Below are positions 1 through 40,378 of a DNA stretch of 40,378 nt, one piece after another. The stretch's first letter is position 1. Each line of letters opens with the position of its first letter. The notes below the pieces were generated by a model. That model did not search any database. It had not been told where the DNA came from and saw nothing but the letters and a program-made list of their open reading frames with translations. Both the position numbers and the translations under genes were made by a program. The DNA comes from Candidatus Saccharimonadota bacterium. Lineage in GTDB: Bacteria > Patescibacteriota > Saccharimonadia > CAILAD01 > BJGX01. The DNA lies in contig JACDEK010000001.1 in the NCBI GenBank assembly GCA_013816445.1, positions 1 to 40,378 on the forward strand, written 5' to 3'.

Positions 1-127
1 CGCTGTTTAAGTATTCAATCTCTGGTAACTCATGGTCTACACTTACTCCTGGTGCTGCTAGGGCTGGTGCTGCTGGTCTTGCTACTTCTGGTCAGTGGGT
101 ACGCAGACAACCAGAAGCTGACTGGAC
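1..127. repeat. Terminal direct repeat copy 1 (identical to 40252..40378); circular-assembly overlap
   Basis: Bases 1-127 (cgctgtttaagtattcaatc...aagctgactggac) recur base-for-base as the last 127 nt of the window. Confidence 0.95.
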
Positions 128-9075: not shown

Positions 9076-12000
9076 ATGGCGTCAGATCCATTCGCAGCTT
9101 GGGAGTCAAGATACGGTTCGCAGTCTAGCGGTGGGGGTGGTAATGATCCATTTTCATCTTGGGAGAGCCGATATAGTGTTGCTCGACTAGACCCTAATAA
9201 ATCACAAAAAGCTGGTGGTCTAGATCAGCTTAACCCAACTCAGCTTAAAAAATTTGGGTATAGCCCACAAGATTTAGGCCAAGAATATGTTAATAAACAA
9301 TATGCTAATCAATTCAGTGGTGCTAATAATACGTTTGCTCGTATATTTAAAGATTTAAGTGACAATGATCGTAAAAAATTATTAGATAATATAAGTAACA
9401 TTCCAGACAACCCAATAAAAAATATGTTGCTTGAAACATCTAAAAATGCTCCAGGTGCAAGTTTTAAATCTAATGCTATAGATAGGGCTAGAGAGTTTAC
9501 TAATGCTCCAGCAAGCACTAAATTATTAAGTGCTTTCTCACCTGTAGCAACAGGTTTGGCATTGTTTAATGCAGATAAAGCTATTCCTAAGCCAATACGA
9601 AACTTTAGCGAAACATATAACCAAAACTTGCTTGGTGGACTCGGTAGAGAAGGTGTCAATATTGCCAATGCTGGTGCTAATTTAATGAGCTTTGGTTTGA
9701 ATAGAGATGCTAACTCTAGAAACGCTCAGATGGTTAAGGACTCTTTATTTCCAGAACAGGGAACTAAAAACTCTCTATCTACTACAAAACGAGAGGATCT
9801 AGATAAGTGGGGTAAATATGGTCAATTAGCTGGCTCTGGTTCTAAACTTGCTACTGAAATAATAGGCACAGGTGATATTGGTAATGTTGCTAAGGGAATT
9901 ACTGCTGGCAGTTCTCTAGTAAAAGGTCTAGCTGGGGGTGGTAGAATTGCACAACTAGGATCTAAAGCCCTACCTTTACTCGGTGAATCGCTTGCTTCTA
10001 CTGGTGTTCAAACAGTAGGTAATGGCGGTGATATAAAAAGAGGTCTTGCTGAGGGTCTTGCTTATGATGCAGCATTTAACGTTGTAACTCTTGGTCTAGG
10101 AAAGTATGCAAGCAAAATAAATGCTCCCGAAACTCTCACTAAACTAGTAGAATCTCAGAGGGATCTAAAAGGTGTCCTGAGAGTAGTAAATGATGCTAAT
10201 GTTTCTGCTAAAGTTAAGAAACAACTCCTCGATGAAACAGATAGATTATCTCAGCTAGCTCTACCAACACCAAGTGGTAAATTAAGTGGTGATGGATTCA
10301 CTATGTCAAACTCACCAAATATTGCTACGATTGGTGCTAGCAAAAGACTTGGCTCAATAGAAAAAATGCTAGGTGATGCATCGGCTGGTAAAAAACAGAT
10401 AGATCCCGAAGCGTTTAAATCTCTGAAAGCTGAGAGAGATAACATACTACAACAAATACAAACTGGTGGTATTCAAAAACCAGCCAGACAAGCATCTACT
10501 GCAATAGGTGAGGACTTTTCTATGGGGGCAACAGCCCCACAAGGAATGATCCCAGCTCCTAGAACACCTGCTGAAATAGAAGTAGCAAAGATACTCGACC
10601 CTAACTATGCAAAACAAGAAGCCAAAGCAATAACTGATGCTAATAAATCTGGTTTCAAAGATAAACTATCAATGATAAAAAGAAAGTTCGTTGGTGCTGG
10701 TCTTGATGACGTTGCGATACTTGAAACTACTGCTAGAAACTCTAATCCTAATCTAAAAGCATCTGAGGATATTGGTAACCTCATAGATAGAACTCGCAGA
10801 TCAGAGATAATAGCTCAACAGTTTGGAAAAGATGCTGGCTTAGAAGACATAATAAAACTACATGGCGGAAAAGATTTTGATAAAGCTAGTATATTCTTGA
10901 GAGATAAGAGAGCCTTAGAACTATACAAGAATACTGGTGAGAATATGTCTGGTGTAGATCTTGGCAAAGCTGCTAAAAATGTAGAACTAAACTCAGCTAG
11001 ATTTGCTGAATTAAGTTCTAAAACCCAAGAGTACAATGGACAGTTCTTAGATGAAGCAGTAAATTACAATTTAATTTCTAGAGAAACTGCTGAGATGCTC
11101 AAAAAACAAAGTCCTGATTATGTTCCATTTAATCGTGTAATGGACGAGATAGAAAAATCATTTGATAGTGGCAGTTCAGTGAGTTTATCTAGCCAGAACG
11201 TAGTCAAAGCAATAAACGGTTCTGACAGAGAAGTAAAGAACGTAATGGAGAATATGTACGAGAATATGGGTAGAATGGTTGCACAGGGTGAAAGAAACAA
11301 TGCTGCAAAAGCACTATCATCTTATGTAAACCTAGAGGGTAATCCATTTGGTATAAGAGAGATAAAAGTATCCGAAGCTATCGGTAATAAAAATACTTTC
11401 TCATTCTTGGATAGTGGAGCAAAGCGTACTTTTGAGATAGCTCCTGAATTTAGAGATGCTGTAAAAGGCATGAATGGAGTAGAGATTGGCTTACTTGGTA
11501 AGATAATGGCACCATCTGCTAGACTTTTGAAAATGGGTGCAACTGGGCTAAACGTAGTATTCGGAGTGAGAAACGTACCAAAAGATCAACAGTTCTCCTT
11601 TATAGTTGGTAAACACCCAATACTTAGTGTTAAAAACTTCTTCAAAGCAGTGGGTGATACTGCTGGATTAGGTGAGTTCGGTGATGAGATGGCTAGATAT
11701 GGTGGCGGTACTATTGAAGCTGATGTATTCCGTAAGATGGGCAAAACAGTAAAACAGATACAGGCTGAAAGAAGCTTAGGTTCAAACCTTGCATACAAGG
11801 CAGCGAGACCTAACCAGTGGCTCAGATCAGTAGAAAATACCATAGGCAAGACCGAAGAGCTAACAAGAACTATGAATGCAAGATCATACTATGACGCTGC
11901 ATCAAAGGCTGGTAAAACAAAAGATGAAGCCATGCGAGAGGCTGTAGATGCCTATAATAAGGTATCTGTAGACTTTTTGAGAGCTGGGTCGATAACTCGT

Positions 12001-13441: not shown

Positions 13442-14277
13442 TGACAATAGGTGAATGGTATGCACAAAGAGCAGGACAACGATTAGGTTCGTGTGGTGGT
13501 GGTAGTCAGAATATCGGGCAGTGCCAGCAATTAGTACAACTATACGCACTTGAGGTTCTAGGTGTACCAGGCTGCCCAGCATTTCCTGTACCATACGCAC
13601 GTCTTATGATGGGTACTCGTACAGATTACTTCACAACCGTACCCAATACACCATCTGGTGTACCACCTTATGGTTCGATAGTAGTCTTTAACGGTAGAGT
13701 TGGCGGTGGCTATGGTCACACAGGCGTAGCAATCGAGGGTAGCGATACTAACGTAGTGCGTATTATTCAACAGAACGACCCAATGGGTTCAGGGGCATCA
13801 ATAAAAATATATAATTATAATAATGTAATGGGCTGGCTTGTACCAAAATCTCAAGCTGTACAACCACAAGGAGATAATGACGTGATAATCAACGATAACA
13901 ATAACTTTGCACGAGCAAACAAAACTCATTTACAAATAAGAGGTAGAGCTTTAGACAGAGGCACATTCAATGCTTTTGTAGGTAAGGGCTGGCTTACATT
14001 TATAGAAGCTTTATCTGATGACCAAGAAGCCAATGACCACGAAGCTGCAGCAACACTAGGTGCAGTAGCTCGCCGAGATAACTGGCAACAACAGATATAT
14101 ACCTTACAAGACCAGAACAAAGTATTGCAGGGGCAAGTAGATAGCCTAGCCAAACAGGTAAAAGAATTACAAGCACAAATTGGTACACAAACAGATGACA
14201 CAAAGCTATTAAATGGCTTCGGTGAAATATTAACTAAACTAATAATCCGTCTTGGACTTAAAGGAGAACAGAAATGA
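13441..14277 (+). CDS. Endolysin, CHAP-domain peptidase with C-terminal coiled coil
   Basis: NIGQCQQLV (Cys nucleophile context) ... GYGHTGVAIEG (His) ... QQNDP; no recognisable wall-binding domain. Confidence 0.7.
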   Translation: MTIGEWYAQRAGQRLGSCGGGSQNIGQCQQLVQLYALEVLGVPGCPAFPVPYARLMMGTRTDYFTTVPNTPSGVPPYGSIVVFNGRVGGGYGHTGVAIEGSDTNVVRIIQQNDPMGSGASIKIYNYNNVMGWLVPKSQAVQPQGDNDVIINDNNNFARANKTHLQIRGRALDRGTFNAFVGKGWLTFIEALSDDQEANDHEAAATLGAVARRDNWQQQIYTLQDQNKVLQGQVDSLAKQVKELQAQIGTQTDDTKLLNGFGEILTKLIIRLGLKGEQK

Positions 14278-14435
14278 ACATAATCATAGCAGTAGTAACA
14301 GCGATAATCGTAGGTGTAATAGTAGCTTTAATAGTAGGACTTGTACCAGCAATTGCAATGTATGCAACAGTAGCAGGATTGATTGCAGGACTTATTGTAC
14401 TAGTAGGTGGCTTGTCAGGTAAGTTTCCATGGTAG
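14274..14435 (+). CDS. Small 2-TM membrane protein (holin-like, 53 aa; below the track cutoff)
   Basis: AAAGGAGaacagaaATG with ATGA overlap to the endolysin stop; hand translation MNIIIAVVTAIIVGVIVALIVGLVPAIAMYATVAGLIAGLIVLVGGLSGKFPW. Confidence 0.6.
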   Translation: MNIIIAVVTAIIVGVIVALIVGLVPAIAMYATVAGLIAGLIVLVGGLSGKFPW

Positions 14436-14602
14436 ACAAACTTAAAGGACTAGGCAAATATAGTAAGTTTCTTGTAGCAGCACTTACTGTAGTGCTTGCA
14501 GGATTAGCTTCTGTGTACGGAGATAACCAATATGTACAACTAGCAATTGGTATCGCTGGTGCATTAGGAGTTTACGCAGTACCAAACAGACAGGTAAAGT
14601 AA
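14429..14602 (+). CDS. Small 2-TM membrane protein (holin-like, 57 aa)
   Basis: ATGGTAG overlap with previous ORF; MVDKLKGLGKYSKFLVAALTVVLAGLASVYGDNQYVQLAIGIAGALGVYAVPNRQVK. Confidence 0.55.
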   Translation: MVDKLKGLGKYSKFLVAALTVVLAGLASVYGDNQYVQLAIGIAGALGVYAVPNRQVK

Positions 14603-14715
14603 TGAAATCAGAGGATAAGGTTATTCTCGAATCAGAAATAATAGAGGAGTGGGATAAGCCAATGGTGTGTCCTATTGATCCAAAAGAACTTTCTGAATGT
14701 GAAGCTTGCCAATAA
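14602..14715 (+). CDS. Small acidic Cys-containing protein (37 aa)
   Basis: TAATG overlap; MKSEDKVILESEIIEEWDKPMVCPIDPKELSECEACQ. Confidence 0.4.
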   Translation: MKSEDKVILESEIIEEWDKPMVCPIDPKELSECEACQ

Positions 14716-14801
14716 GTGATATACTCTAAATAAGTCGTCGTACCTGCTTTCAAGTGCAACTTATATATTTATACAAAAACTCGTTTAAGAACAACTCTAA
14801 A

Positions 14802-14830
14802 AATACCTCATCGACTTGGGGTATTTTTTT
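14802..14830 (+). terminator. Rho-independent terminator of the late arm
   Basis: AATACCTCA-tcgact-TGGGGTATT (9 bp including one G-U) followed by a T-run. Confidence 0.7.
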
Positions 14831-14834
14831 ATAT

Positions 14835-14862
14835 AAAAAGCCCCCTGTATTTCTACAGGAGG
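14835..14862 (-). terminator. Rho-independent terminator of the early arm
   Basis: Minus strand CCTCCTGTA-gaaa-TACAGGGGG then CTTTTT. Confidence 0.7.
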
Positions 14863-14868
14863 CACTGC

Positions 14869-15009
14869 TCAGAATAGTGTACCTTGTGGGTCAACTTTGT
14901 CTGGGCAGGTTTTCGCTTGTCGGGCGAGGTGTGGTTCTTGGAGTTTGGCTTCCCACTTACGGAGGCGGTAGTCCAAGTAATCAACGAAGAAGCTAATCAG
15001 CTTGAACAT
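14869..15009 (-). CDS. Micro-ORF E (46 aa) of the GC-rich block
   Basis: GAGGAGGtgaaaagATG; MFKLISFFVDYLDYRLRKWEAKLQEPHLARQAKTCPDKVDPQGTLF. Confidence 0.5.
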   Translation of the reverse strand: MFKLISFFVDYLDYRLRKWEAKLQEPHLARQAKTCPDKVDPQGTLF

Positions 15010-15164
15010 CTTTTCACCTCCTCAATGAGTAGCTCGACGTGACGGTGTTGAATCTCTAGGCGGTTGATGTCACGAACTAAGAGGATATGAGCCTTACGTT
15101 TGATGTCTAGCTCAACTTCTAATCCTCGAAGTTCTATCTCTAGAAACTCTTGGTCTTGTGTCAT
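14997..15164 (-). CDS. Micro-ORF D (55 aa, coiled-coil-like)
   Basis: ATGA overlap with ORF C; MTQDQEFLEIELRGLEVELDIKRKAHILLVRDINRLEIQHRHVELLIEEVKRCSS. Confidence 0.5.
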   Translation of the reverse strand: MTQDQEFLEIELRGLEVELDIKRKAHILLVRDINRLEIQHRHVELLIEEVKRCSS

Positions 15165-15331
15165 CGTTCCCCCGTTCGCATCTCCTCTTTCTCGATTCGC
15201 GACACTAGCTTTATACGCTCAGCTTGTACCCGCAGTATCTTGCTGTTGATGTTTTTGTTCCATCTGTATAACTTGGCAAGGTACTTGTCGGTCTTGATTA
15301 GACGTTCTCTCAACGCAACCACGTTCGACAC
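15161..15331 (-). CDS. Micro-ORF C (56 aa, coiled-coil-like), GTG start
   Basis: AAGGAGataactcGTG; (M)SNVVALRERLIKTDKYLAKLYRWNKNINSKILRVQAERIKLVSRIEKEEMRTGER. Confidence 0.5.
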   Translation of the reverse strand: MSNVVALRERLIKTDKYLAKLYRWNKNINSKILRVQAERIKLVSRIEKEEMRTGER

Positions 15332-15524
15332 GAGTTATCTCCTTTGGTGTGTTGGAGAAAAGTAGACCGTTGGTATACCACAACGATTCTGTGACTGGGC
15401 AGTAATGGCAGTACAGAAAGGCTGTAATTGACGCAACCTCTACAGGAGTTTTACAAACAGGGCATACTACTTTTCTACTACGCCCCGTTTGGTTACGACG
15501 ACGGTTCGCATTACTCGAAAACAT
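15219..15524 (-). CDS. Zinc-ribbon-like small protein (track ORF, 101 aa; C-terminal third may be non-coding read-through)
   Basis: AAGGAGGtggaacacagATG; CPVC...17 aa...CHYC; overlaps ORF C by 113 nt in another frame. Confidence 0.5.
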   Translation of the reverse strand: MFSSNANRRRNQTGRSRKVVCPVCKTPVEVASITAFLYCHYCPVTESLWYTNGLLFSNTPKEITRVERGCVERTSNQDRQVPCQVIQMEQKHQQQDTAGTS

Positions 15525-15592
15525 CTGTGTTCCACCTCCTTGCGTAGTGTTACAATCCTAACTTCGCAATGAGGGCATACCCAGTTAATCAT
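15467..15592 (-). CDS. Micro-ORF A2 (41 aa, CPHC motif)
   Basis: ATGA overlap with A1; MINWVCPHCEVRIVTLRKEVEHRCFRVMRTVVVTKRGVVEK; overlaps start of 15524 ORF. Confidence 0.35.
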   Translation of the reverse strand: MINWVCPHCEVRIVTLRKEVEHRCFRVMRTVVVTKRGVVEK

Positions 15593-15678
15593 CGTCTTCC
15601 TTTCGATGGTGTCCGACGCTTCTTGCGGGATGCACGCTTCTTCTTCTGTACTACTACAGACTTCTGCACAGTTGCCAT
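15589..15678 (-). CDS. Micro-ORF A1: extremely basic 29-aa peptide
   Basis: GGGGGAataATG; MATVQKSVVVQKKKRASRKKRRTPSKGRR (13 K/R of 29); TATAAT on minus strand at 15715..15710. Confidence 0.45.
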   Translation of the reverse strand: MATVQKSVVVQKKKRASRKKRRTPSKGRR

Positions 15679-15747
15679 TATTCCCCCTAGATTGTAAGGT
15701 ACTAACTACATTATACGCCTAGTACCAGCCCTTTGCATTTGAATGAG

Positions 15748-16368
15748 CTAGCACGTGCAACTTCCACAATGTTTCTTAACCTTTGTACCCTTGGCTATCT
15801 TGCTGAAATAATCTTCGCCATATTTTTTAGCCAACTCCTTACCAGACAACGAACCAGTTATTTTACTGTTACCCCAGTACGAGTTATCTACTTCTAATAC
15901 AGGTAAGTGTTTCCATGAGTAGCCTCTTACTATTTTGTTCACAGACGACTTGTTTATCCCATACTCTTCCGCAAGGTCTAGGCTTCGCTCCCCAGTTTGT
16001 TTTCTTTTGCGTATTTCCATGACTTGCCTTTCGGATAGCTTAGCTGTGTTGACACTTTCGCCTCTTCTCAAAAATAACCTTCTCTCGTTGTTCTCTGTCG
16101 GTGTGCAGGATTCTAGGTTTACCAACCTACAATCAGTCACTATCCCATTTATATGATTAACGTGATAACCATCAGGAATATCGGCGTAGGTAGATATAAC
16201 CAGGCGATGTAGAGATTTCTCAGATACCTTCCCATCTTTACTCAGCCTTACTGATAGGTAGCCTCCATTTTTAATTACAGGCTTTACTACACCGAGCGTT
16301 TTCCTATTTCTGATATAGCCATCTATGCTACATTCATAATTTGGGTAGTCTTCAAGTTGTTTCCACAT
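15748..16368 (-). CDS. HNH homing endonuclease (NUMOD4 + HNH_3 + C-terminal HTH)
   Basis: WKQLEDYPNYECSIDGYIRN; HRLVISTY...VNHINGIVTDCRLVNLESCTPTENN; LSERQVMEIRKR...YGINKSSVNKIVRGYSWKHL. Confidence 0.85.
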   Translation of the reverse strand: MWKQLEDYPNYECSIDGYIRNRKTLGVVKPVIKNGGYLSVRLSKDGKVSEKSLHRLVISTYADIPDGYHVNHINGIVTDCRLVNLESCTPTENNERRLFLRRGESVNTAKLSERQVMEIRKRKQTGERSLDLAEEYGINKSSVNKIVRGYSWKHLPVLEVDNSYWGNSKITGSLSGKELAKKYGEDYFSKIAKGTKVKKHCGSCTC

Positions 16369-16400
16369 ACCCCTATATTAACACAGTAGTTCTTGTGGTA

Positions 16401-16991
16401 CTAGTACCAATTATGACTGTCGTGCCAGCTTACTGCGGCTTTCCAGCTTCCATATCTTTGAATCACATAATTTTGCATCCAAATTAATTGATTCACTGGA
16501 GATACGGCACTCGTACCGTTTGCATTTACAGCCCCCATTTTACTACAGGGCAGGCTTTGCCCAACCCCGCAAGCTCCTGAGCTTTTATTCACTGCATTTG
16601 GATTACAGCCTGATTCCCTATTGATCAGTATTATTGCTGAACCAACATCTGTGACGCCTGCTTGAGCCATCCAGTCGCTACATGAGCCAGAAGCCCTAGC
16701 TACTGGGGCGGGCGGGAAAGATGGCTTAGGGGCTGTCTGTGTGGCTAATTCGGCTAATCTTTTAGCCTCTGCCTTAGCCTGTACTTGTTGCTTTAACTCT
16801 TCTACTTGTTTCTTTAGAAGTTCTGACTCTTCTTTTTGTTTTAACTGATTTACTTTTAACTGTACTCCAACATTCTTGATAGATTGTATTTTGTAATCAG
16901 TTTCTATTTTTGAAGTATTTAATTTTACTGCTATTACTAGGATCGCTGCTATGGCTATAAGCCAAGTGACTGCTAATAAACGTGATAAAAT
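16401..16991 (-). CDS. Membrane-anchored muralytic protein (TM + coiled coil + transglycosylase-like/Apf-type domain), probable ATT start
   Basis: Track ORF 16401..16670 carries NRESGCNPNAVNKSSGACGVGQ...RYGSWKAAVSWHDSHNWY. I verified codon by codon that the frame stays open 107 codons upstream to TAA 17006-17004 with no ATG/GTG/TTG. GGAGaaagcttATT lies at 17002-16989. Confidence 0.65.
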   Translation of the reverse strand: MLSRLLAVTWLIAIAAILVIAVKLNTSKIETDYKIQSIKNVGVQLKVNQLKQKEESELLKKQVEELKQQVQAKAEAKRLAELATQTAPKPSFPPAPVARASGSCSDWMAQAGVTDVGSAIILINRESGCNPNAVNKSSGACGVGQSLPCSKMGAVNANGTSAVSPVNQLIWMQNYVIQRYGSWKAAVSWHDSHNWY

Positions 16992-22217: not shown

Positions 22218-22253
22218 ATATAAATCATACGCTTGCCGTTTCTTTGTGTAAAG

Positions 22254-22278
22254 AAAAACCGCCCCTAGGGAAGGGCGG
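22254..22278 (-). terminator. Intrinsic terminator-like hairpin (minus strand)
   Basis: Minus strand CCGCCC-ttccctag-GGGCGG followed by TTTTTCTTT. Confidence 0.6.
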
Positions 22279-22298
22279 GCTCATATGTGATCTCTCTT

Positions 22299-22327
22299 AT
22301 AATATATCAACTAGTTTTAATTGTCAA
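22299..22327 (-). promoter_or_regulatory. Near-consensus sigma70-type promoter TTGACA-17-TATTAT (minus strand)
   Basis: Positions counted base by base: -35 at 22327..22322, 17-nt spacer, -10 at 22304..22299. Confidence 0.6.
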
Positions 22328-39359: not shown

Positions 39360-40378
39360 ATGGCTACTACGAATACATTACAAAAAACGCTAGACCGAAA
39401 AACTTGGGAGTTTATGACACCTGTCCCAGTAGCAACGCTGGCTGGGTCACACGTTATATCCTCTAACTCTGAAGACCCTTACGCACTACAGATGTATATA
39501 GTCTCTACGACAGCTCAATACCTGTTTCTACCTAAAGAAGATGCTTGGCTACAAATAGCCACAGTTACACTTGGAGGTACTTTATCTGCTGGTGCTACTG
39601 GAACGTATGTCTCTGTTGGCCCAACAGGTACGGCTACGGCTGGTTCTGCTACAACCATGACAACCAACCTCACTATTCCAGGTTCATTAGTTGGGTACAC
39701 TGTCAGAATCACGGCTGGGGCTGGTGCAGGTCGTCAAGCTACAATCTTATACAACACAACTGGTGCAAACGCAGTCTTTACATTTACCGCTTCGGGAACA
39801 GTCCTAGACGCTACTTCTGTCTATGAAATACGCTCAGGCAGGTTCTACGTCTGGAACGCTGGTACAATGTCAGCTACTTCCTTCCAATACTACGATGTTG
39901 CAACTAATACATGGACAGCTCGCTCAGTTACCTCAGCTCCAGCGACTTTCGCTACTGACGGTAAAATGATTTCTACCTCTGGTGTTTCACAATTTGTAAC
40001 AGGTACAGCCACCGCTGGTGCTGCTTCAACACTAACTAACAGTGCAAAAACTTGGACAGTGAACCAATGGACTAACTATCAGATACGCCTAACTGGTGGA
40101 ACAGGTGCAGGGCAAAAGAGAGTCATAGCTTCTAACACAGGAACAATTATAACTACTACGGCAATCTGGACGATTAACCCTGATGCTACTTCTACTTACG
40201 TTATTGAGGGTGATGAGAACGCCATCTACCTACTAGGGAACGCTGTTGTGACGCTGTTTAAGTATTCAATCTCTGGTAACTCATGGTCTACACTTACTCC
40301 TGGTGCTGCTAGGGCTGGTGCTGCTGGTCTTGCTACTTCTGGTCAGTGGGTACGCAGACAACCAGAAGCTGACTGGAC
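39360..40378 (+). CDS. N-terminal part of junction-spanning Kelch-like repeat virion protein (continues at base 128 after the overlap is collapsed)
   Basis: AGGAGacactATG at 39360; open to the window end; not in the track because it has no in-window stop. Confidence 0.8.
   Translation, partial: MATTNTLQKTLDRKTWEFMTPVPVATLAGSHVISSNSEDPYALQMYIVSTTAQYLFLPKEDAWLQIATVTLGGTLSAGATGTYVSVGPTGTATAGSATTMTTNLTIPGSLVGYTVRITAGAGAGRQATILYNTTGANAVFTFTASGTVLDATSVYEIRSGRFYVWNAGTMSATSFQYYDVATNTWTARSVTSAPATFATDGKMISTSGVSQFVTGTATAGAASTLTNSAKTWTVNQWTNYQIRLTGGTGAGQKRVIASNTGTIITTTAIWTINPDATSTYVIEGDENAIYLLGNAVVTLFKYSISGNSWSTLTPGAARAGAAGLATSGQWVRRQPEADW
40252..40378. repeat. Terminal direct repeat copy 2 (identical to 1..127)
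   Basis: Direct comparison of both window ends. Confidence 0.95.

What the first reader, a model, noticed from the sequence alone, without database searches (positions are those of the whole stretch)
14869..15715. GC-rich island of six overlapping micro-ORFs at the distal end of the early arm
My hand counts of 60-nt lines at 14881, 14941, 15001 and 15481 give 55, 48, 47 and 53 % G+C. A line at 9301 gives 28 %. The block has its own TATAAT (minus strand, 15715..15710). It encodes a chain of SD-preceded, ATGA-coupled ORFs, of which only the 101-aa one is long enough for the track. They are a 29-aa peptide with 13 K/R (MATVQKSVVVQKKKRASRKKRRTPSKGRR), a CPHC peptide, a CPVC...CHYC zinc-ribbon protein, two roughly 55-aa coiled-coil proteins and a 46-aa protein. 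Two pairs overlap in different frames by 58 and 113 nt. The block abuts an HNH homing endonuclease. Composition, packing and position suggest a horizontally acquired accessory module, such as host takeover, anti-defence or a toxin/antitoxin-like set, with no recognisable family.
Basis: partly seen in the sequence, partly recalled or inferred. Interest (0 to 1): 0.6.

Follow-up and report, generated by a model that had tools for sequence, protein, structure and literature searches.

The report
Conserved micro-protein operon in uncultured phages
The six tiny overlapping genes are real and form a self-contained operon that a whole family of uncultured phages keeps between its lysis genes and its early genes, in either orientation, but none of its proteins matches a known family and its function is still only inferred.

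Summary
The block on the minus strand (14869-15715) carries six SD-preceded, overlapping micro-ORFs, a TATAAT and an intrinsic terminator. It is 46.2 % G+C against 39.6 % for the phage. The excess is modest overall (z 2.4) but clear at third codon positions (0.51 against 0.31, above every long ORF).

Comparison shows that A, C, D, E and F are under purifying selection. B has a paralogue-type homologue in one relative. The 37-aa tail of the 101-aa protein C, which overlaps D, evolves neutrally.

This is not a fresh island. The same cassette sits at the same junction in every relative recovered: a polybasic peptide, one or two C-x2-C…H-x-C zinc proteins, an optional helical protein D, the invariant single-helix protein E, and the Trp-rich mini-protein F. 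In two relatives it lies between the same flanking genes in the opposite orientation. Most relatives share a conserved -10 and leader. All show the same GC3 excess.

Pfam, PHROGs, NCBIfam, PADLOC, PDB sequences and fold searches gave no significant match.

Best reading: a conserved, autonomously transcribed operon of cytoplasmic, mostly basic proteins built around a coiled-coil core, probably binding nucleic acid, with a regulatory or host-takeover role. The function is inferred, not shown.

The parts
15710..15715 (-). -10 hexamer TATAAT, 3 nt after the stop codon of the ancestral muralytic gene
   Evidence: Read from the sequence. It is 100 % conserved in L006, and relatives carry TACAAT, TATAAT or TATTAC at the same distance from the leader. 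The consensus scan did not call it because the -35 is weak.
15692..15707 (-). Conserved leader AGTTAGTACCTTACAA between the -10 and the first SD
   Evidence: It occurs once in the window, with 0 expected in shuffles. It is identical in L006 and L008/L009 and nearly identical in L012 and L013, although the upstream genes differ.
15589..15678 (-). ORF A, 29 aa, net charge +13 (polybasic peptide)
   Evidence: Window vs L006: 5 synonymous and 1 non-synonymous change. Window vs L012: 93 % amino-acid identity with pS 0.79 and pN 0.10. A-type peptides are also present in L011, L013 and L015.
15467..15592 (-). ORF B, 41 aa, short-type C-x2-C...H-x-C zinc protein
   Evidence: 36 % identical over 33 aa to the first zinc ORF of L008 (pairwise E 5e-5). 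It shares the CCHC ligands and VVT.xG. It is absent from the 91-97 % identical L006 through a 122-nt indel, so it is dispensable.
15219..15524 (-). ORF C, 101 aa: Arg-rich N-terminus, CCHC zinc-ribbon core (aa 20-68), and a 37-aa tail that overlaps D
   Evidence: 17-member family with invariant C21, P22, C24, H40, C42, N52, G53, S57 and R68. AlphaFold2 gives a beta-rich core with pLDDT 79-92. The tail frame has dN/dS 1.0-1.1, against 0.14-0.46 for the D frame on the same bases.
15161..15331 (-). ORF D, 56 aa (GTG start), basic (+8), predicted helical
   Evidence: Homologues in L006 (75 % identity) and L011 (70 %), with dN/dS 0.22-0.57. It is absent from L008, L012, L013 and L015. Helicity is inferred from the sequence only.
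14997..15164 (-). ORF E, 55 aa, invariant core protein: one long alpha-helix with motif E-[LI]-[HR]-G-[LI]-D-[VI]-E-L
   Evidence: Present in all eight lineages. 17 true representatives among 1.84 billion proteins. dN/dS 0.10-0.17. AlphaFold2 gives a single helix over residues 3-54 with mean pLDDT 97.
14869..15009 (-). ORF F, 46 aa, aromatic amphipathic N-terminus; its start lies inside the end of E
   Evidence: Homologues overlap the end of E in L006, L008, L012, L013, L015 and L017. L012 vs L013 gives dN/dS 0.14.
14830..14863 (-). Intrinsic terminator of the cassette
   Evidence: 10-bp stem with 6 G-C pairs, followed by a T-run. It is identical in L006.
14799..14835 (+). Facing terminator of the late/lysis operon
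   Evidence: Inverted repeat I10, 14799-14810 / 14817-14828, followed by a T-run.
15716..15751 (-). Remnant of the old 3' end of the muralytic gene (..LAHSNAKGWY-stop), left behind the HNH insertion. It supplies the sequence upstream of the -10.
   Evidence: In L006 the same bases are the true end of the muralytic gene, and the HNH gene is missing.

Best explanation
The block is a conserved micro-protein operon of a family of uncultured phages, not a recently acquired island.

The window is a complete, circularly permuted phage genome of about 40 kb, binned with an ultrasmall bacterial genome of about 0.87 Mb.

Shown here:
- The unit runs from a -10 element and a conserved leader to its own terminator. 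It sits at the point where the late/lysis arm and the early arm converge.
- It encodes a 29-aa polybasic peptide (A), two paralogous CCHC zinc-ribbon proteins (B and C, with C carrying an Arg-rich N-terminus), a basic protein predicted to be helical (D), an acidic single-helix protein (E) that is the only universal member, and an aromatic amphipathic mini-protein (F) whose start lies inside the end of E.
- None of the six has a membrane segment or signal peptide.

Inferred:
- E oligomerises as a coiled coil with F, and with D where D is present. This scaffold brings the basic and zinc proteins A, B and C onto RNA or DNA.
- The unit acts inside the cell as a regulator of phage or host gene expression, or as a host-takeover complex. 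Host RNA polymerase transcribes it from its own promoter, and in this genome read-through from the early arm also contributes.

The long overlap of C with D is a by-product. D is the constrained frame and the C tail drifts.
For: Phage identity and circularity: terminase, portal, capsid, endolysin and nuclease hits, and a 127-nt terminal overlap.

Real genes: dN/dS is 0.06-0.10 for A, 0.10-0.17 for E, 0.14 for F, 0.22-0.57 for D and 0.14 for C. In more distant pairs, where synonymous sites are saturated, pN stays well below pS. B matches L008 Z1.

Conservation at one junction: L006, L008/L009, L011, L012, L013/L014, L015, L016 and L017.

Opposite orientation between the same flanks: in L011 and L009 the order is lysis(+), module(+), muralytic gene(-). 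In the window and L006 it is lysis(+), module(-), muralytic gene(-).

Conserved -10 and leader with unrelated upstream genes, and a terminator hairpin directly upstream in L013 and L015. The cassette has its own terminator.

Protein properties: net charges are A +13, B +5, C +5, D +8, E -3 and F +2, and no hydrophobic run exceeds 5 residues. E is a single helix with pLDDT 97. C has a beta-rich zinc core with invariant C, C, H and C.
Against: No experiment or homology links any of the six proteins to a function. Every family and fold search was negative. Nucleic-acid binding rests only on charge and the zinc motif, and complex formation only on translational coupling and helicity. The window's -35 is poor and the promoter scan missed the site. 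In L011 the cassette follows the lysis genes with no recognisable promoter, so the timing of expression is not fixed. Constant adjacency to lysis genes could point to a lysis-related role instead. The persistent GC3 excess is unexplained.
Confidence: 0.45

Rival explanations
1. Lysis-associated module: the small proteins tune the timing or execution of lysis, for example as cytoplasmic regulators of the holins or of the membrane-anchored muralytic protein.
For: The cassette lies directly after the last lysis-cassette gene (the 37-aa Cys peptide) in L011, L013 and L015, and one gene further on in L008. It lies directly next to the Apf-type muralytic gene in the window lineage (L006) and in L011, with only an HNH gene (plus one small gene in L012) between them in the window and L012. 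In L011 it has no visible promoter of its own and would be co-transcribed with the lysis genes.
Against: No protein has a membrane segment, signal peptide or lipobox. In the window, L006 and L016 it is on the strand opposite the lysis genes, and in most relatives it is insulated by terminators. The junction position may only reflect where the two arms meet.
Confidence: 0.15
2. Accessory cargo in the moron sense: an anti-defence, exclusion or toxin/antitoxin-like set that spreads horizontally between phages.
For: It has its own -10/leader and terminator, atypical GC3 and codon usage (CAI 0.61 against 0.70 +/- 0.03 for the phage), flipped orientation, variable gene content (A, B, C, D and F are each missing somewhere), and a mosaic replacement of the C core between the window and L006. 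The moron definition is taken from PMC3594210.
Against: It is present in every relative at the same site, E is never lost, and selection is purifying rather than diversifying. There are no PADLOC or Pfam hits and no HTH Aca-like gene. No integrase or repressor was found among the ORFs scanned, and an earlier unchecked note (e1-3381191) reports none in the genome. The phage therefore looks virulent, whereas morons are typically prophage-expressed.
Confidence: 0.13
3. DNA-replication or recombination accessory: small DNA-binding proteins that stand in for the initiator missing from this genome.
For: No replicase, primase or helicase appeared among the early-arm ORFs scanned, and an earlier unchecked note (e1-3381191) reports none in the genome. 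A, B, C and D are basic, and B and C bind zinc by motif.
Against: There is no similarity to primase or initiator zinc domains. The cassette lies far from the recombination genes, and in some relatives it is co-directional with late genes.
Confidence: 0.1
4. The micro-ORFs are chance open frames in a GC-richer spacer or a structured non-coding RNA.
For: The window transcript folds better than shuffles: z -4.6 and -7.6 with the terminator, and -3.5 for the coding part alone.
Against: Frame-specific purifying selection acts on A, C, D, E and F, while the off-frames carry stops and show dN/dS near 1 or above. There are no Rfam hits. The cassettes of relatives are not unusually structured, with z between -1.4 and +1.0.
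Confidence: 0.02

Closest known systems
Morons of tailed phages (Juhala/Hendrix; reviewed in 'The moron comes of age', PMC3594210)
   Same: An independent transcription unit with its own promoter and terminator elements and a G+C content different from the neighbouring genes (for the definition; for the block).
   Different: Morons are additions present in one phage and absent from its relatives, and they are typically expressed from prophages. This cassette is present at the same site in all eight lineages recovered, in a phage where no integrase or repressor was found among the ORFs scanned.
PeSL-bounded small-gene cassettes of T4-type phages (Arbiol et al. 2010, PMC2839356)
   Same: Small ORFs of unknown function bounded by a stem-loop terminator plus a sigma-70-like promoter. 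These units are shuffled between related genomes. In L013 and L015 a terminator hairpin directly precedes the cassette promoter.
   Different: PeSL motifs are repeated many times per genome and recombine with each other. Here the leader motif occurs once per genome, and no flanking repeats explain the inversion.
Small zinc-finger regulators of phages (P2 Ogr, Mu Com) and Arg-rich RNA-binding peptides (lambda N); compared from my own knowledge, not tested
   Same: Size (about 30-100 aa), a zinc knuckle with a CxxC half-site, and basic segments. They act on RNA polymerase or on mRNA.
   Different: The ligand pattern is C-x2-C-x13-15-H-x-C and no Pfam zinc-ribbon family reached significance. Peptide A is far shorter than lambda N. 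No sequence or fold similarity was found.
Embedded or overlapping spanin genes (Rz/Rz1) next to lysis cassettes; compared from my own knowledge
   Same: Coiled-coil proteins with a small gene overlapping in another frame, next to lysis genes.
   Different: There is no N-terminal membrane helix and no lipoprotein box in any of the six proteins. The bin's ultrasmall genome suggests a candidate-phyla-radiation host without an outer membrane, but that identification is an inference.

Membership tests
Moron | Own promoter | tested here: inconclusive
   There is a perfect TATAAT and a conserved leader, also found in L008, L012 and L013 behind unrelated genes. However, the -35 is weak and the consensus scan did not call the site. 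No transcript data exist.
Moron | Own terminator | tested here: met
   10-bp G+C-rich hairpin with a T-run at 14863..14840.
Moron | Base composition different from neighbours | tested here: met
   G+C is 46.2 % against 39.6 %. GC3 is 0.507 against 0.313 +/- 0.058.
Moron | An addition that is absent from related phages at that site | tested here: not met
   The cassette is present at the lysis/muralytic junction in all eight lineages recovered.
PeSL mobile regulatory cassette | Promoter plus stem-loop motif repeated at many sites in the genome | tested here: not met
   The leader with its -10 occurs once in the window even with 3 mismatches allowed, and the exact 16-nt leader core occurs once in each related locus that carries it.
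Zinc-ribbon proteins | Four conserved metal ligands in two knuckles | tested here: met
   C21, C24, H40 and C42 are invariant in 17 C-type sequences and in the B-type sequences. The core is beta-rich with pLDDT 79-92. Metal binding itself was not tested.
Zinc-ribbon proteins | Significant match to a curated zinc-ribbon family or a solved zinc ribbon | tested here: inconclusive
   Best Pfam E-values are 0.07-0.15. Best PDB profile E-value is 0.2. Foldseek E-values are at least 2, with NrdR, Trm112 and LysW zinc ribbons on top. VIA-align gives Z of at most 3.
Spanin pair (Rz/Rz1-like) | N-terminal membrane helix in the coiled-coil protein and a lipobox in the embedded protein | tested here: not met
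   The longest hydrophobic run is at most 5 residues in all six proteins, and there is no L-x-x-C near any N-terminus.
Anti-CRISPR (acr-aca) operon | Helix-turn-helix Aca gene at the end of the operon | tested here: not met
   No HTH family hit in any of the six ORFs at E up to 1.
Toxin-antitoxin pair | Homology to a known toxin or antitoxin, or demonstrated toxicity and neutralisation | tested here: inconclusive
   There are no Pfam, NCBIfam or PADLOC hits. Toxicity cannot be tested with these tools.

The most novel reading that the evidence does not exclude
The cassette is the missing regulatory switch of a phage family in which no recognisable transcription factor or replicase was found. 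In this reading it is an orientation-free, self-promoted set of micro-proteins: a polybasic RNA-binding peptide, zinc ribbons and a coiled-coil core. They would act on host RNA polymerase or on nascent phage RNA, for instance to read through the promoter-proximal terminator at 22259-22278 ahead of the early operon. They would constitute new families of transcription or antitermination factors in phages of ultrasmall bacteria.
Probability: 0.12. Interest if true: 0.7.

Novelty: new variant of a known kind. Interest (0 to 1): 0.42.

Why it matters
The work validates by comparison five micro-proteins of 29-101 aa that gene callers largely miss, plus a sixth with weaker support. It defines at least two new small-protein families: the E helix family and the C-type CCHC zinc-ribbon family. 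It also shows a cassette that looks like horizontally acquired cargo (own signals, odd composition, flipped orientation) and yet is a conserved feature of a phage lineage. That is a useful caution for 'moron' and 'island' calls made from composition alone. The host appears to be an ultrasmall bacterium, inferred only from genome sizes of 0.4-1.2 Mb across all but one of the 60 genomes searched in the order. If that is right, these are candidate regulators in a group of phages with very few characterised genes.

Tried and rejected
1. Nucleotide searches of the block and of the terminase/portal region against 50,697 phage records found no match.
2. The 101-aa protein alone found nothing in viral contigs or in the word-indexed protein search. 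Relatives appeared only through the neighbouring holin gene, the E protein and family alignments.
3. No Rfam family matched, at gathering threshold or at E up to 1. No tRNAs were found.
4. Structured mRNA as the cause of the high GC3 is rejected. The window transcript scores z -3.5 to -7.6, but relatives score z -1.4 to +1.0, like control genes.
5. Codon adaptation to the host as the cause is rejected. CAI against the bin's genes is lower for the cassette (0.61) than for the other phage genes (0.70), and the host GC3 is 0.33.
6. D and E as paralogues: no BLASTP alignment.
7. Site-specific inversion: no flanking inverted repeats.
8. E-family search in 401 genomes of the host class found only the window's bin and one other bin of the same family.
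9. Two hits of the exhaustive search (P0011, P0013) are translations of repeat arrays, not relatives.
10. The ESM Atlas gave only unnamed phage clusters.
The genomic context of the 28 database proteins of the E and C families therefore could not be fetched.
12. A second genome-contig scan failed because the alignment was too diverse.

Full report
**Setting**

The window is the whole of contig C113 of a bin of 870 kb in 117 contigs. It has a 127-nt exact terminal overlap, so the contig is circularly closed. PHROG hits show a tailed phage. Small and large terminase, portal, major head protein, virion proteins and a CHAP-type endolysin lie on the plus strand, from 23836 around the contig ends to 14715. 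NinG, a PD-(D/E)XK exonuclease and a DNA methyltransferase lie on the minus strand, from about 23400 down to 14869. The finding sits where the two arms converge.

**Observation**

- The hand counts are exact.
- The 847-nt block is 46.2 % G+C against 39.6 % overall. That is z 2.4 and the top 2.6 % of windows of that size.
- The other G+C-rich stretch, at about 1300-2400, owes its richness to first and second codon positions of a Gly/Ala-rich protein (GC3 0.20).
- In the block the excess is at third positions. In-frame GC3 is 0.507 against 0.313 +/- 0.058 for 43 long ORFs, none above 0.444.
- The six ORFs, their Shine-Dalgarno sequences, the ATGA couplings and the 58- and 113-nt overlaps are as described.
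- A strong intrinsic terminator follows F. A second terminator, for the late operon, faces it.
- The TATAAT is present, but its -35 is poor and the consensus scan did not list it.

**Relatives**

Direct searches with the block, or with the 101-aa ORF, found nothing. Three other routes did find relatives.

- The adjacent holin gene led to L006, a metagenome contig 91-97 % identical to the window.
- Protein E led to two database proteins and to a related phage contig in another bin of the same host family, L008/L009.
- A profile search of 1.84 billion representatives gave 17 true members of 53-87 aa, plus two repeat-array artefacts. A scan of viral contigs with that family gave seven loci, L011-L017; L016 lies on the same contig as L002.

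**Are the ORFs genes?**

| ORF | Evidence |
|---|---|
| A | vs L006: 5 synonymous, 1 non-synonymous change. vs L012: 93 % protein identity with synonymous sites saturated (pS 0.79, pN 0.10) |
| E | vs L006: 5 synonymous, 2 non-synonymous changes. L012 vs L013: dN/dS 0.17 |
| F | L012 vs L013: dN/dS 0.14 |
| C | L012 vs L013: dN/dS 0.14 |
| D | dN/dS 0.22 against L011 |
| B | absent from L006; 36 % identical over 33 aa to the first zinc ORF of L008 (E 5e-5), with the same ligands and a shared VVT.xG |

The off-frames carry stops or show ratios near or above 1. In the 113-nt C/D overlap the D frame has dN/dS 0.14-0.46, and the C-tail frame has 1.0-1.1. D is therefore the constrained gene and the last 37 residues of C are a tolerated read-through. 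Members without D have C proteins of only 64-71 aa.

**Architecture across the family**

| Locus | Gene order |
|---|---|
| Window | A B C D E F |
| L006 | A C D E F |
| L011 | A C D E |
| L012, L013/L014 | A C E F |
| L008 | B-type, C-type, E, F |
| L015 | A E F |
| L016, L017 | another small Cys protein, then E (and F in L017) |

- E is the only universal member. F nearly always starts inside the end of E.
- The cassette lies next to the lysis cassette, the Apf-type muralytic gene, or both, in seven of the eight lineages. In L017 neither gene was detected within the 8 kb fetched.
- In L011 and L009 it lies on the same strand as the lysis genes and converges on the muralytic gene. In the window and L006 it lies on the other strand, downstream of the muralytic gene.
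- The same flanks thus hold the cassette in both orientations. The window has no flanking inverted repeats.

**Signals**

- The 16 nt AGTTAGTACCTTACAA between the -10 and the first SD are identical in the window, L006 and L008, and nearly so in L012 and L013. The genes upstream are unrelated: a muralytic-gene remnant, a metallophosphoesterase, a small membrane protein and the lysis cassette.
- L012, L015 and L016 carry TTTACA-17 nt-TAnnnT.
- L013 and L015 have a terminator hairpin immediately upstream.
- L011 has no such promoter.
- In most lineages the cassette is therefore an insulated transcription unit. In the window, read-through from the early arm is also possible, because no terminator separates it from the HNH gene.

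**Composition**

- The GC excess is a property of the cassette in every relative: module 43.5-50.3 % G+C against 36.3-42.4 % for the flanks, and GC3 0.40-0.54 against 0.25-0.40.
- Synonymous sites between these lineages are saturated. This cannot be the fading footprint of a recent transfer into this genome.
- It is not adaptation to the host. Host-bin GC3 is 0.33, and the cassette's CAI is 0.61 against 0.70 for other phage genes.
- It is not mRNA structure.
- It remains unexplained.

**The proteins**

- Four of the six are strongly basic: A +13, D +8, B +5 and C +5. E is acidic. None has a hydrophobic run above five residues.
- C-type proteins form a 17-member family with invariant C21, P22, C24, H40, C42, N52, G53, S57 and R68, and a basic N-terminus.
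- AlphaFold2 gives C a beta-rich core with pLDDT 79-92. The only neighbours of that model are generic zinc ribbons at non-significant scores: Foldseek E of at least 2, and VIA-align Z of at most 3.
- E is predicted as one continuous helix over residues 3-54, with pLDDT 97.
- Pfam, PHROGs, NCBIfam, PADLOC, PDB sequence profiles and the ESM Atlas gave no significant or named match.

**Interpretation**

What is shown is a conserved, compact, largely self-contained operon of cytoplasmic micro-proteins at a fixed junction of this phage family.

What is inferred is the mechanism. A coiled-coil core (E with F, and with D where present) would carry basic and zinc-binding partners (A, B, C) onto nucleic acid, with a role in regulation or host takeover.

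The main rival is a role linked to lysis, because of the constant neighbourhood. Accessory anti-defence or toxin-like cargo, and a replication accessory role, are less likely but not excluded.

By the published definition of a moron, the block meets the terminator and composition criteria. The promoter criterion is inconclusive. It fails the criterion of being an addition absent from relatives. It differs from PeSL-bounded cassettes of T4-type phages in having no repeated boundary motif.

**Limits**

- No host is cultured, and no expression data were available.
- D's helicity and every functional statement are inferences.
- The host assignment rests on binning only: two bins of one family carry related phage contigs.

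Noticed in passing
window 15716-16566; L006 1678-1819: The HNH gene sits inside the 3' end of the Apf-type muralytic gene. L006 lacks the HNH and has 108 nt where the window has 815 nt. The window carries a divergent replacement 3' end for the muralytic gene (16401-16565). It also keeps the last 10 codons and stop codon of the old end (..LAHSNAKGWY-stop) as a remnant at 15716-15751, identical to L006. L012 has a different HNH at the same place. This looks like repeated homing-endonuclease invasion of one site.
   Followed up: yes
window 14289-14436: The first holin-like ORF (53 aa, 14274-14435) is absent from the 91-97 % identical L006 through a 148-nt indel. It is therefore dispensable or recently gained.
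   Followed up: partly
L008 1221-1505: The C-type zinc-ribbon ORF of the related phage has no ATG, GTG or TTG before its CPIC knuckle. An in-frame ATT lies 6 nt after a perfect AAGGAGG.
   Followed up: partly
window 1-127 and 40252-40378: An exact 127-nt terminal overlap. The contig is a circularly closed, complete phage genome of about 40.25 kb.
   Followed up: yes
window 15346-15365 / 15467-15486: A 20-nt inverted repeat (80 % complementary) brackets the zinc-ribbon core of C. It contributes to an unusually stable predicted fold of the window's transcript (z -3.5 to -7.6). It is not present in relatives, so it is probably a by-product of the B/C duplication.
   Followed up: partly
L008 332-1162; L017 4301-5245: A calcineurin-like metallophosphoesterase (276-314 aa, 55-59 % identical between the two) lies next to the cassette in two lineages. 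It is absent from the window.
   Followed up: partly
window 14602-14715 and relatives: The 37-aa acidic Cys peptide that ends the lysis cassette (..CPIDP..L..CE.CQ) is conserved in six of the seven other lineages (all but L017), together with a 75 % identical holin in L002. It is a real gene of unknown role.
   Followed up: partly
proteins P0011, P0013: Two database 'proteins' that matched the E profile are translations of arrays repeating SLLVREINWLET. They are probably mis-called CRISPR-like repeat arrays.
   Followed up: no
window 22224-22327: A near-consensus promoter (TTGACA-17-TATTAT) is followed by a terminator hairpin (22278..22259) and then a second promoter-like site (TTTACA-17-TATGAT) ahead of the early operon. 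This is a possible target for an antitermination factor.
   Followed up: no
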